In this document: one piece after another, positions 38,631 through 42,277 of the stretch
Numbering within the stretch: the stretch's first letter is position 1
Layout: each line of letters opens with the position of its first letter
Origin: the human T2T-CHM13v2.0 reference genome, Homo sapiens
NCBI RefSeq assembly: GCF_009914755.1
Contig: NC_060926.1
Reading direction: 5' to 3' (one strand)
DNA length: 64,000 nt
Made by a program: the position numbers and the translations under genes
The notes under the pieces: model-generated
The model's input: the letters and a program-made list of their open reading frames with translations, nothing else
Databases searched by the model: none
What the model was told of the DNA's origin: nothing

Positions 38631-40621
38631 ATGTGACAAAGTGAAAGCAGACATTCTGCTTAAGTTCTTTAAAGCATTTGTTATGAAGTGGGGGAGTAAA
38701 AGTTAGGACTCAGAGTTTGTTATCACTTTTTAGTACAGTAAGGCAGTTTTGCCCATGGTTCCTGGAACAGGGACTATGGAGTTGGATGAATGGGAGAGAA
38801 TTGGAAGAGATTTTTTTTTTTAATTATACTTTAAGTTTTAGGGTACATGTGCACAATGTGCAGGTTTGTTACATATGTATACATGTGCCATGCTGGTGTG
38901 CTGCACCCATTAACTTGTCATTTAACATTAGGTATATCTCCTAATGCTATCCCTCCCCCCTCCCCCCACCCCACAACAGGCCCCGGTGTGTGATGTTCCT
39001 CTTCCAGTGTCCATGTGTTCTCATTGTTCAATTCCCACCTATGAGTGAGAACATGCGGTGTTTGGTTTTTTGTCCTTGTGATAGTTTGCCGAGAATGATG
39101 GTTTCTAGCTTCATCCATGTCCCTACAAAGGACATGAACTCATCCTTTTTTATGGCTGCATAGTATTCCATGGTGTATATGTGCCACATTTTCTTAATCC
39201 AGTCTATCATTGTTGGACATTTGGCTTGGTTCCAAGTCTTTGCTATTGTGAATAGTGCTGCAATAAACATACCTGTGCATGTGTCTTTATAGCAGCATGA
39301 TTTGTAATCCTTTGGGTATATACCCAGTAATGGGATGGCTAGGTCAAATGGTATTTCTAGTTCTAGATCCCTGAGGAATCGCCACACTGACTTCCACCAT
39401 GGTTGAACTAGTTTACAGTCCCATCAACAGTGTAAAAGTGTACCTATTTCTCCACGTCCTCTCCAGCATCTGTTGTTTCCTGACTTTTTAATGATTGCCA
39501 TTCTAACTGGTGTGAGATGGTATCTCATTGTGGTTTTGATTTGCATTTCTCTGATGGCCAGTGATGATGAGCATTTTTTCATGTGTCTTTTGGCTGCATA
39601 AATGTCTTCTTTTGAGAAGTGTCTGTTCATATCCTTTCACCCAATTGTTGATGGTTTTTTTTTTTTTCTTGTAAATTTGTTTGAGTTCATTGTAGATTCT
39701 GGATATTAGCCCTTTGTCAGATGAGTAGATTGCAAAAATTTTCTCCCATTCTGTAGGTTGCCTGTTCACTCTGATGGTAGTTTTTTTGCTGTGCAGAAGC
39801 TCTTTAGTTTAATTAGATCCCATTTGTCAATTTTGGCTTTTGTTGCCATTGCTTTTGGTGTTTTAGACATGAAGTCCTTGCCCATGCCTATGTCCTGAAC
39901 GGTATTGCCTAGGTTTTCTTCTAGGGTTTTGATGGTTTCAGGTCTAACATTTAAGTCTTTAATCCATCTTGAATTAATTTTTGTATAAAGTGTAAGGAAG
40001 GGATCCAGTTTCAGCTTTCTACACATGGCTAACCAGTTTTCCCAGCACCATTTATTAAATAGGGAATCCTTTCCCCATTTCTTGTTTTTGTCAGGTTCGT
40101 CAAAGATCAGATGGTTGTAGATATGCGGCATTATTTCTGAGGGCTCTGTTCTGTTCCCTTGGTCTATATCTCTGTTTTGGTACCAGTACCATGCTGTTTT
40201 GGTTACTGTAGCCTTGTAGTATAGTTTGAAGTCAGGTAGTGTGATGCCTCCAGCTTTGTTCTTTTGGCTTAGGATTGATTTGGCAATGCGGGCTCTTTTT
40301 TGGTTCCATATGAACTTTAAAGTAGTTTTTTCCAATTCTGTGAAGAAAGTCATTGGTAGCTTGATGGGGACGGCATTGAATCTATAAATTACCTTGGGCA
40401 GTATGGCCATTTTCATGATATCGATTCTTCCTACTCATGAGCATGGAATGTTCTTCCATTTGTTTGTATCCTCTTTTATTTCATTGAGCAGTGGTTTGTA
40501 GTTCTCCTTGAAGAGGTCCTTCACGTCCCTTGTAAGTTGGATTCCTAAGTATTTTATTCTCTTTGAAGCAATTGTGAATTGGAAGAGATTTTTTTTTAAA
40601 AAGGTGTATAAAGACAGAGCA
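38631..40621 (+). pseudogene. gag: HERV-K gag matrix remnant (about 70 codons) split by an L1PA
   Basis: ATG at 38631 followed by TGA (M*QSESRHSA; ancestral MGQ inferred), LLSLFSTVRQFCPWF, ELDEWERIGRD|L1|FKKVYKDRA; frameshifted. Confidence 0.85.
38811..40575 (-). mobile_element. 5'-truncated L1PA (about 1.77 kb) inserted in gag
   Basis: ORF2 C-terminal ORFs (39766-40416 and others), 3'UTR and T tail at 38811; TSD gaattggaagagatttt starting at 38798 and 40576; target TTTT/AA is the canonical L1 endonuclease site. Confidence 0.97.
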
Positions 40622-42277
40622 GTGACGGGTACCACGGAGGGTGCTGCTGAGGCGATGATGGCAGAGGGGCCCAAGGAAGTCCGAGGCTGTCCTCTGGGGC
40701 ATGACGAGGGCGGAGGGGACCAGGAGCCCGTCCCTTCCCTGAGGGGCCCTCCTGCCGCCATCCCATGCCCCCGCGCCGGCCCCCAGGGCCACCGCCGCTG
40801 ATGGGTCGGAGCCACCCCGCGGGCTCAGGAGGAGCCGGGAGGCGACCTCGGGCTCCCTTGCGGGGCTGCAGGAGCAGGTAGGCTGCTTGAAGTGTCGGAA
40901 GCTGCGGCGCCGTGGGAGAGGCCGGCGCGGCTGAGCGCCCTTGGGTGCTCCTGGCGAGTGCACGAGTGACTGTGGCAGTCCTGCTGCGGCTACCTCACCT
41001 GGCGCAGTGGCCCGGCTACACTCCCCGACTGCTATAGCCCCCAACCGTCCCGGCAGAGCTTCTCTTTGGAGGCACTGCCGTCCCCCAGGCCGCGGCGCCG
41101 CCATCCCCACGGCTGGGCTATTACAACCCCTTCTACTTCCTGAGCCCCAGGGCCGCGGGGGCTTGACCCGGGGGCAGCTGCTGGCATCAGCACCCCTGCT
41201 ACAGTCACGGGCCTGGGACCCTGGGTTCCTCATGTGCAGGCATCAATCCGGGCCACTCCAGTGACAAAGGTAGGATCTGCAGCCCCTTCCCGAAGCCAGA
41301 GTGAGACCGGGCAACCGGCAGGCAAAGAATAAGTTATTCCATCCTTGGGCCACGGGTGGCAAGGATGGTGGATTTCTTTATTATCTTCTTTGTAAAAGCA
41401 ACCATTGTCTTAAGCATTATGCACCTCAGTGGGATAAAGGATATCTCTAAGTTTGCTATGCATTATATAATGGAAGAAATAGATGAGGACACATCAACGG
41501 AAGACTTGCTGAAAATGATGGTTATGGCTCTTATATACAGATTATTAGTTTGTTTTTATGAGATAATTTTCATTTGGGGAGCAGGTGGAGCTACCCCAGG
41601 GAAGCTCCTGGTGGGGCTTCGAGTTGTGACATGTGATACATTAGTGCTTATTGCACTAAGTCGTGTTTTAGTGATTCCTTTTTCAAATGTTAGCATTACA
41701 ACGTCCACTATACGAGCTTTGATCAAGAATTTTTTGATTGCTTCTTTTTTCCCTGCTTTTATCACACTGCTGTTTCTTCAACATAATCGAACAGCCTATG
41801 ACATTGTAGCAGGAACCATTGTGGTAAAAAGAAATGGGGTCAGAGATGCCCCCCCAAAGACCTGATTTCCACACGCTATAATGACAAGACTAAATTATGT
41901 ATCAAGGCCATCAGTATCCCTGGGTTCCACTAACTGATGATTTAGAAATTAAAGCAATCACTCCAGTGTGATGCAGCTGACTACTCTGAAAGTTTTGATT
42001 GTACTTGAATGCCAAAAACTTTTCCAGAAGAAAAACCTATTAAATTCAAGTATTAAAATTTTTAGATCAAAAAGGCAAATGATTTTATAAACAATGAACA
42101 ATATATACTTTCTTAAGATCTAAGGTACTTTCATAAGATCTAAGAATTTGCTGAAAGCATTTTCAGCTTTGAAATCTCCAAATGAAACTTTAAAATTGAT
42201 TTTGGTTTATCCCAAAACAATGGAAAATGTCCAGTTGTGTTTTGTAAACATGTATGTAACTCATCTTTTAGTTCACA
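40622..42277 (+). pseudogene. FAM8A1: FAM8A1 intronless pseudogene (5'UTR piece, CDS about 40658-41845, partial 3'UTR); locus number not determined
   Basis: [10 protein letters not shown]...[30 protein letters not shown] 41356-41865 MVDFFIIFFVKATIVLSIMHLSGIKDISKFAMHY...HNRTAYDIVAGTIVVKRNGVR is the FAM8A1 RDD region. Stops (40799, about 41330) and frameshifts; no introns; no poly-A. Confidence 0.95.

What the first reader, a model, noticed from the sequence alone, without database searches (positions are those of the whole stretch)
40576..40801. Gag matrix is fused in frame to FAM8A1 (gag-onc-like chimera)
Seen: removing the L1 and one TSD gives ...[34 protein letters not shown]..., with no stop or frameshift between gag and the FAM8A1 ATG (ORF 40508-40801 shows the frame). 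Inference: the founder virus encoded a Gag MA (about 70 aa, ancestral MGQ myristoylation start)-linker-FAM8A1 fusion, like Gag-Abl or Gag-Myc, potentially a membrane-targeted ERAD cofactor. A random junction is in frame one time in three, so this is suggestive only. This copy is dead (codon 2 is TGA, frameshifts, L1 insertion).
Basis: partly seen in the sequence, partly recalled or inferred. Interest (0 to 1): 0.78.

Follow-up and report, generated by a model that had tools for sequence, protein, structure and literature searches.

The report
Known HERV-K capture of FAM8A1
This is one dead copy of an ancient endogenous retrovirus that long ago picked up the host gene FAM8A1, an event already published; the join to the viral gag gene was originally in frame, but nothing shows that a fusion protein ever mattered.

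Summary
The chimera is real and already known: Jamain et al. 2001 (not held here), and Tan et al. 2016, whose Supplemental Table 8 labels the chr6 and chr11 copies HERVK14. The retained target-site copy has 9 T where 2 of the 3 other copies and 7 of 12 non-transduced relatives have 4, so the gag phase stops at 40623-40625. ORF 40502-40801 is in the FAM8A1 phase, not the gag phase. In the chrY and chr6 copies gag runs in frame into the FAM8A1 Met, so the founder probably carried a potential 71 + 12 + 413 codon ORF. Both junctions sit on microhomology, 6 nt at the 5' end and 12 nt at the 3' end, which fits reverse-transcriptase template switching. An in-frame landing is expected about 1 time in 3 to 5. 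No selection is detectable. Three of four independently integrated copies share a 23-bp frameshift deletion in FAM8A1. All 3 copies that keep gag codon 20 read TGA there, though it is a CpG site. At least 5 amino-acid changes at residues conserved in mammals were fixed before the copies diverged. Verdict: already known, ordinary, low interest.

The parts
38497..38630 (+). 5'-truncated start of the HERVK14 provirus: last 8 nt of the Lys primer-binding site plus the leader; no 5' LTR
   Evidence: Homology to 13 relatives and paralogs begins at 38497-38512. No 5' LTR match in the 8.5 kb upstream. The PBS reading is from recall of the Lys PBS.
38631..38814 (+). gag matrix (MA) remnant, left part, up to the L1 insertion; ATG 38631, codon 2 TGA, codon 20 TGA, private 4-bp and 1-bp deletions
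   Evidence: Alignment with 3 paralogs and 12 relatives. Gag_p10 hit E 7.8e-7 at 38690-38773.
38815..40575 (-). 5'-truncated L1 insertion with its poly-A tail (poly-T on the + strand), flanked by target-site copies at 38798 and 40576
   Evidence: Sequence and duplicated GAATTGGAAGAGA+T. L1 ORF2-like minus-strand ORFs. Absent from the chr11, chr6 and chrY copies.
40576..40621 (+). gag MA codons about 58-71 (right target-site copy onward), with the T-run of 9 at 40589-40597; the 6-nt junction microhomology is at 40616-40621
40622..40657 (+). 12 codons derived from the FAM8A1 5' UTR (linker); the last is ATG here and ACG in the parent gene
   Evidence: Alignment to parent exon 1 on chr6.
40658..41844 (+). 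FAM8A1 coding-sequence remnant (FAM8A3P). Private lesions against the parent: deletions of 3, 47, 1 and 4 bp, insertions of 2 and 1 bp, first stop at 40799-40801; RDD domain at 41356-41814
   Evidence: RDD E 5.9e-12.
41845..42288 (+). FAM8A1 3' UTR remnant, ending in the 12-nt 3' junction microhomology ACTTCCTGGGGA at 42277-42288; no poly-A
   Evidence: Alignment of 4 copies, parent genomic DNA and 9 relatives.
42289..43718 (+). Viral pro-pol remnant: dUTPase 42360-42449, protease 42597-42755, reverse transcriptase 43225-43704; homology to most relatives ends at 43718
43928..44923 (+). 3' internal remnant after a large pol deletion; integrase C-terminal domain at 44036-44128
44924..45257 (+). 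3' LTR, about 334 bp, ending ...CAACA
   Evidence: Matches the 5' and 3' LTRs of the chr11 and chr6 copies.

Best explanation
FAM8A3P is one of four surviving integrations of a defective HERVK14 (HERV-K class II) element that captured a spliced FAM8A1 mRNA. During minus-strand DNA synthesis, reverse transcriptase switched from the viral RNA to a co-packaged FAM8A1 mRNA at a 12-nt identity in pro and the 3' UTR. It then switched back to viral RNA at a 6-nt identity (GGAGCA) between the 5' UTR and gag codons 70-71. The insert replaced about 1.5 kb of gag-pro (the CA and NC regions). The element also lacks most of pol, so it could only spread through proteins supplied by intact relatives. The 5' switch happened to fall in frame, so the founder genome held a potential ORF of 71 MA codons, 12 linker codons and 413 FAM8A1 codons. 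That ORF was not needed for spread and shows no sign of selection. The window copy later lost its 5' LTR, took an L1 insertion exactly at the T/A run next to the junction, and decayed. Shown: the structure, both junctions, the independent integrations, the frame in each copy, and the shared lesions. Inferred: the template-switch mechanism, helper dependence, and lack of function.
For: (1) Processed cDNA: the four exon joins are exact and the parent translates to 413 aa. (2) 5' junction: 12 non-transduced relatives continue past GGA GCA into gag sequence, the 4 FAM8A copies continue into the parent's 5' UTR, and the shared GGAGCA is the only overlap. 3' junction: 12 nt are shared by the parent 3' UTR and 9 relatives. 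Tan et al. [quoted passage not shown] Their Supplemental Table 8 names HERVK14 for the chr6 and chr11 copies. (3) Independent integrations: homology among the 4 copies stops at the LTR ends; the chr6 copy has a 6-bp target duplication; LTR-LTR identity is 88% in the chr11 and chr6 copies. Only 4 retrocopies plus the parent were found, by two DNA searches and one protein search. (4) Defective: in relatives about 1.5 kb lies between the two breakpoints. Gag_p10 spans residues 8-89 in relative L024, so the join at residue 71 truncates it. RT is followed directly by the integrase C-terminus. (5) Frame: chrY and chr6 read through in frame, chr11 and the window do not. (6) No need for the ORF: a 23-bp deletion with identical ends is in chr11, chrY and chr6 but not chr2. 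(7) Of 8 non-synonymous differences shared by all 4 copies, 5 are derived in the retroviral lineage. They fall at residues identical to human in 14, 14, 14, 13 and 10 of 14 orthologs (codons 113, 125, 263, 289, 166).
Against: No frameshift or stop in the FAM8A1 coding sequence is shared by all four copies (0 shared stops; no indel common to all 4). The common ancestor could therefore have had the whole fusion ORF open, apart from gag codon 20, whose TGA may be three parallel CpG decays (relatives: 5 TGA, 6 CAA, 1 CGA of 12). If all 7 unpolarised synonymous differences were placed on the retroviral stem, N:S would be 5:7 against 204:95 on terminal branches (Fisher p 0.065), a weak hint of constraint. 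Site patterns among the copies conflict, so the 23-bp-deletion clade is not cleanly supported by substitutions (only 2 shared sites). I could not read Jamain 2001, so I do not know what it says about the frame.
Confidence: 0.8

Rival explanations
1. One reading: the founder virus expressed a myristoylated MA-linker-FAM8A1 fusion whose activity (for example as a membrane-targeted cofactor of ER-associated degradation) favoured the spread of this defective genome, as gag-onc fusions do in acutely transforming retroviruses.
For: The junction is in frame in 2 of 4 copies and in the modal T4 state of relatives. An MGQSES-type start is present in the chr11 copy and in relatives. No lesion in the FAM8A1 coding sequence is common to all 4 copies. 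A defective element still reached at least 4 fixed integrations. FAM8A1 is reported as a Hrd1-complex cofactor (passage in PMC6987440).
Against: An in-frame join is expected by chance about 1 time in 3 to 5. A 23-bp frameshift is shared by 3 of 4 copies. TGA at gag codon 20 is in 3 of 3 copies that keep it. Five derived amino-acid changes fall at conserved residues before the copies split. No N:S test is significant. Defective variants can spread in trans without any ORF, and a title seen in a reference list indicates that HERV-K14 families mobilised other cellular sequences.
Confidence: 0.08
2. The founder never made a fusion. Gag translation already ended at codon 20 (TGA), and any FAM8A1 protein would have come from its own ATG, which keeps its native context; the gag stub was kept only because it overlaps cis-acting leader or packaging sequence.
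For: TGA at codon 20 in the window, chr11 and chr6 copies, beside a non-CpG change in the next codon that is shared by these 3 and seen in 0 of 12 relatives. The FAM8A1 start context is retained.
Against: Codon 20 is a CpG site, and 5 of 12 unrelated relatives also decayed to TGA, so three parallel hits have a chance of roughly 1 in 8. The chrY copy lacks this region. A packaging role for the gag stub is assumed from general retrovirology, not tested here.
Confidence: 0.12
3. The four copies arose by segmental duplication of one integration, so shared lesions say nothing about spread as a retroelement.
For: None found.
Against: Pairwise comparison of 20-22 kb around each copy shows homology ending at the LTRs, apart from short dispersed repeats. 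The flanks differ, and the chr6 copy has its own 6-bp target duplication.
Confidence: 0.01

Closest known systems
Transduction of FAM8A1 by HERV-K (Jamain et al. 2001, Genomics 78:38; FAM8A pseudogenes)
   Same: This is the same event. The window holds FAM8A3P, one of its products. Tan et al. 2016 (passages) describe it as HERV-K capturing FAM8A1 with microsimilarity at the fusion points.
   Different: I could not read the 2001 paper, so I cannot say whether it notes that the gag junction is in frame. The per-copy frame states, the shared 23-bp deletion and the polarised substitutions reported here come from my own calls.
LTR-mediated retroposition by template switching (Tan et al. 2016, PMC5131818)
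   Same: An intronless cDNA sits inside an LTR element. Both junctions lie on short identities (6 and 12 nt). There is no poly-A and no L1-type target duplication around the retrocopy. Their Supplemental Table 8 lists the chr6 and chr11 copies with HERVK14.
   Different: Their table lists two human FAM8A1 retrocopies. The chr2 copy (this window) and the chrY copy are not in the passage I saw.
Defective transducing retroviruses with delta-gag-X fusions (Gag-Myc of MC29, Gag-Abl of Abelson virus; recalled textbook knowledge)
   Same: An N-terminal gag stub is joined in frame to a cellular cDNA. Structural and enzymatic genes are lost, and the element depends on a helper.
   Different: Those fusions are selected by cell transformation and are shown to be expressed. 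Here the cargo is a ubiquitously expressed ER membrane protein, the host is the germ line, and no expression, activity or selection is shown.
HERV-K14 families mobilising other cellular sequences (Flockerzi et al. 2005, J Virol 79:2941)
   Same: Same retroviral family name (HERVK14) and the same kind of event, cellular mRNA portions inside proviruses that made progeny.
   Different: Only the title was seen, in a reference list; the paper is not held. The details (TRPC6 cargo, uniform deletions, age near 39 My) are recalled, not checked.

Membership tests
Retrovirus-transduced cellular gene | Intronless copy of a cellular mRNA lying inside a provirus, between viral sequences | tested here: met
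   Four exact exon-exon joins against the chr6 parent. gag lies upstream and pro-pol downstream.
Retrovirus-transduced cellular gene | Progeny copies at independent integration sites | tested here: met
   Four copies on chr2, chr6, chr11 and chrY with unrelated flanks. The chr6 copy has a 6-bp target duplication.
gag-X fusion of a defective transducing retrovirus | gag reading frame continuous with the cellular ORF | tested here: inconclusive
   Continuous in the chrY and chr6 copies; broken in the window (T-run of 9) and in chr11 (7-bp insertion). TGA at gag codon 20 in 3 of 3 copies that keep it.
gag-X fusion of a defective transducing retrovirus | Fusion protein expressed and biologically active | not testable with these tools
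   No expression data were available. The sequence tests show no selection.
HERVK14 (HERV-K class II, betaretrovirus-like) | Betaretroviral domain set and order: Gag_p10, dUTPase in pro, protease, RT, integrase | tested here: met
   Pfam hits in order along the + strand. At least 117 gag-5' candidates in the genome, 40 of them scored.
HERVK14 (HERV-K class II, betaretrovirus-like) | Assignment to the named repeat family | not tested
   No repeat library was on hand. The name is taken from Tan et al. Supplemental Table 8 for the chr6 and chr11 paralogs, which share gag, pro-pol and LTRs with the window copy.
Template-switch (microsimilarity) retroposition | Short identity between donor mRNA and viral RNA at each junction; no poly-A | tested here: met
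   6 nt at the 5' junction and 12 nt at the 3' junction. The 3' junction lies within the 3' UTR.
FAM8A1 / RDD-domain protein gene | RDD domain | tested here: met
   PF06271, E 5.9e-12, at 41356-41814.
FAM8A1 / RDD-domain protein gene | Intact coding sequence | tested here: not met
   Six indels against the parent and a first stop at 40799-40801.

The most novel reading that the evidence does not exclude
The founder HERVK14-FAM8A1 element expressed an N-myristoylated MA(1-71)-linker-FAM8A1 protein that altered ER quality control in germ-line or early embryonic producer cells and so helped this doubly defective genome reach fixation at several loci. That would be a natural germ-line counterpart of gag-onc transducing viruses. 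The ORF would have been lost (23-bp deletion) only in a later sub-lineage.
Probability: 0.07. Interest if true: 0.65.

Novelty: already known. Interest (0 to 1): 0.18.

Why it matters
Capture of a host gene by an endogenous retrovirus is rare in the human genome, so the locus is a useful textbook case of how reverse-transcriptase template switching builds chimeras. The case was described in 2001 and re-catalogued in 2016. The gag junction was in frame in the founder but is not in frame in this copy. Both switch points sit on microhomology. An ORF-broken variant still spread. The captured gene shows no host-like constraint. Together these argue against a selected Gag-FAM8A1 protein, so the finding should not be promoted as a new gag-onc-like gene.

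Tried and rejected
(1) Reading the primary papers: Jamain 2001 and Flockerzi 2005 are not held.

(2) Literature searches. FAM8A1 + endogenous retrovirus + transduction gave 2 papers. FAM8A + HERV gave 2 papers. FAM8A1 + gag as whole words gave 5 papers, of which 4 were listed; by their titles and abstract openings none concerns retroviral gag. One search was swamped by TRPC6 papers and was useless. I therefore found no printed statement about the frame of the junction in the held library. Supplement file 1 of Tan et al. was not searchable.

(4) The repeat finder and a blastn of upstream against downstream found no LTR pair in the window. The reason is that the 5' LTR is missing.

(5) A clean tree of the four copies could not be had. 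Two- and three-copy site patterns conflict: (chr2, chr6) 13 non-CpG sites, (chr2, chrY) 9, and the 23-bp-deletion trio only 1 non-CpG site. I did not build a tree and treat the clade as supported mainly by indels.

(6) dN/dS on the stem: only 15 coding differences are shared by all four copies. The synonymous ones could not be polarised because only ortholog proteins, not DNA, were available. The tests are not significant.

(7) Whether the long open frame 41305-41865 reflects constraint on this copy: private N:S is 11 (+1 stop-type) to 6, similar to the other copies. Rejected.

(8) Segmental duplication as the source of the copies: rejected.
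Full report
**What is in the window.** The sequence between 38497 and 45257 is a decayed, 5'-truncated provirus. Its parts, in order:
- Leader, 38497-38630.
- gag matrix stub with ATG at 38631 and codon 2 TGA. Gag_p10 hit, E 7.8e-7.
- A minus-orientation L1 at about 38815-40575, between two copies of GAATTGGAAGAGA plus a T-run.
- The last gag codons, then a FAM8A1 cDNA from 44 nt upstream of its ATG to within its 3' UTR (40616-42288).
- pro with dUTPase and protease, the N-terminal part of RT, a large pol deletion, the integrase C-terminus and a 334-bp 3' LTR.

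The cDNA nature is shown by exact joins of the five parent exons on chr6. The parent translates to 413 aa.

The L1, the target-site duplication, the TGA at codon 2 and the quoted peptide strings are all there. The claim of no frameshift does not hold for this copy.
- The retained target-site copy carries 9 T (40589-40597).
- In the gag phase the sequence reads [15 protein letters not shown] and stops at 40623-40625.
- ORF 40502-40801 is in the FAM8A1 phase and reads the same bases as NWKRFFFKK.

**The other copies and the relatives.** Two DNA searches and one protein search of the whole assembly found three further retrocopies (chr11, chr6 and chrY) plus the parent gene, and nothing else. The T-run and frame in each copy:

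| Copy | T-run | Frame from gag into FAM8A1 |
|---|---|---|
| chrY | 4 T | in frame into the FAM8A1 Met |
| chr6 | 4 T | in frame into the FAM8A1 Met |
| chr11 | T6C | broken by a private 7-bp insertion in the linker |
| chr2 (window) | 9 T | out of frame |

The gag stub belongs to a large family, with at least 117 candidates of which 40 were scored. Of 12 non-transduced relatives aligned, 7 have 4 T; the other 5 vary in this homopolymer. The founder's junction was therefore most probably in frame. That gives 71 gag codons (counted on the natural translation of relative L024), 12 codons of 5' UTR, then the 413-codon FAM8A1 ORF. Gag_p10 covers residues 8-89 in L024, so the domain is truncated at the join.

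**How the chimera formed.**
- At the 5' junction the relatives continue past GGA GCA into gag, and the FAM8A copies continue into the parent 5' UTR. GGAGCA is common to both.
- At the 3' junction 12 nt (ACTTCCTGGGGA, 42277-42288) are common to the parent 3' UTR and to pro of 9 relatives.
- In relatives about 1.5 kb separates the two breakpoints.

This is the pattern expected from two template switches by reverse transcriptase between viral RNA and a co-packaged mRNA. The mechanism is inferred. The microsimilarity is also stated by Tan et al. 2016 (passages). With a 6-nt anchor deciding the 5' switch point, the frame is a matter of chance. One in three, times the chance of no stop in 12 codons, comes to about 0.2-0.3.

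I compared the copies column by column instead.

1. *Independent integrations.* Homology between 20-22 kb regions ends at the LTRs. The chr6 copy has its own 6-bp target duplication. LTR-LTR identity is 88% in the chr11 and chr6 copies.
2. *A shared frameshift.* A 23-bp deletion in the FAM8A1 ORF (near coding position 463), with identical ends and flanked by a short direct repeat, is present in chr11, chrY and chr6 but not in chr2. A variant with a broken ORF therefore still produced integrations.
3. *Gag codon 20.* It is TGA in all 3 copies that retain it. This is a CpG site that reads TGA in 5, CAA in 6 and CGA in 1 of 12 relatives, so inheritance from the founder is possible but unproven.
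4. *Substitutions shared by all four copies.* Against the parent coding sequence, these are 8 non-synonymous, 7 synonymous and 0 stops. Private differences are 192 non-synonymous, 12 stop-type and 95 synonymous.
5. *Polarisation with 14 ortholog proteins.*
   - Five of the 8 are derived in the retroviral lineage: codons 113, 125 and 263 at residues identical in 14 of 14 orthologs, codon 289 in 13 of 14, and codon 166 in 10 of 14.
   - Two (codons 34 and 86) are changes of the parent lineage.
   - One (codon 17) is ambiguous.
6. *Synonymous sites.* They could not be polarised. Giving all 7 to the retroviral stem yields 5:7 against 204:95, p 0.065; using the raw 8:7 gives p 0.26. At least 5 amino-acid changes are assignable to the parent lineage since capture, so several of the 7 synonymous differences are expected to belong to the parent as well. 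That is inference, and it weakens the hint further.

No indel or stop in the FAM8A1 coding sequence is common to all four copies. The common ancestor may therefore have had an open fusion frame. The substitution patterns among the copies also conflict, so the order of events is not firmly resolved.

**Comparison with what is known.** The event is the published transduction of FAM8A1 by HERV-K. Jamain et al. 2001 is cited and summarised in PMC5131818 and PMC6987440; the paper itself is not held. Supplemental Table 8 of Tan et al. labels the chr6 and chr11 retrocopies HERVK14. In layout the element resembles defective delta-gag-X transducing viruses (recalled), but expression and activity, which define those, cannot be tested here. 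In the held library I found no statement on the frame of the junction. The unread 2001 paper may contain one.

**Verdict.** The locus is a known, dead, transduced pseudogene. The in-frame junction is real for the founder but not for this copy. It is within chance expectation, and the comparative evidence leans against a selected fusion protein.

Noticed in passing
FAM8A part of the four copies (window 40622-42288 and paralogs L002-L004): Among non-CpG differences from the parent shared by all four copies, 10 of 15 are parent A versus copy G, against 45 of 265 among private differences. Pooling sites shared by 3 or 4 copies gives 14 of 33, Fisher p 0.0017. Four of the 5 polarised stem amino-acid changes are A-to-G, mostly after a T. 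This could reflect RNA editing of the viral genome or a reverse-transcriptase bias. At least 2 of the 10 are instead G-to-A changes in the parent lineage.
   Followed up: partly
window 41305-41865 (+): A 186-codon stretch without stops covers the whole RDD half of FAM8A3P, the longest open stretch among the four copies. Private N:S there is 11 (+1 stop-type) to 6, like the other copies, so no constraint is indicated.
   Followed up: yes
window 38430-38512: The provirus begins abruptly at 38497, within what looks like the last 8 nt of a Lys primer-binding site (PBS sequence recalled). No 5' LTR lies within 8.5 kb upstream, while the 3' LTR is present at 44924-45257.
   Followed up: partly
window 43718-43928; chr1 at about 62.06 Mb of the same genome: All FAM8A copies share a short structure in which RT is followed by the integrase C-terminus, with most of pol missing. 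A locus on chr1 that did not appear in the FAM8A searches matches across the same breakpoint (query 1429-1512). The capture may therefore have happened in an already deleted variant.
   Followed up: no
four copies, FAM8A part: Two- and three-copy shared sites conflict. (chr2, chr6) share 13 non-CpG sites and (chr2, chrY) share 9, while the trio with the 23-bp deletion shares only 1 non-CpG site. Possible causes are recombination between co-packaged variants, homoplasy in the GC-rich exon-1 part, or alignment noise.
   Followed up: partly
window about 41872-41879 (3' UTR part): An 8-nt stretch is present in all four retrocopies and absent from the present-day parent 3' UTR. It is either a deletion in the parent lineage after capture or an insertion before the copies split.
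   Followed up: no
parent FAM8A1, chr6 at about 17.47 Mb (L005): At codons 11, 34, 67, 86 and 188 the retrocopies keep the residue seen in most other mammals, while the human gene differs. The pseudogenes thus preserve older states of the host protein and could help date the capture.
   Followed up: partly
window 38811-38821 and 40589-40602: The L1 inserted exactly at the T-run/A-run boundary next to the gag-FAM8A1 junction, a sequence that fits the usual L1 endonuclease target (TTTT/AA, recalled). The right-hand target-site copy has 5 more T than the chrY and chr6 copies; the cause is unknown.
   Followed up: no
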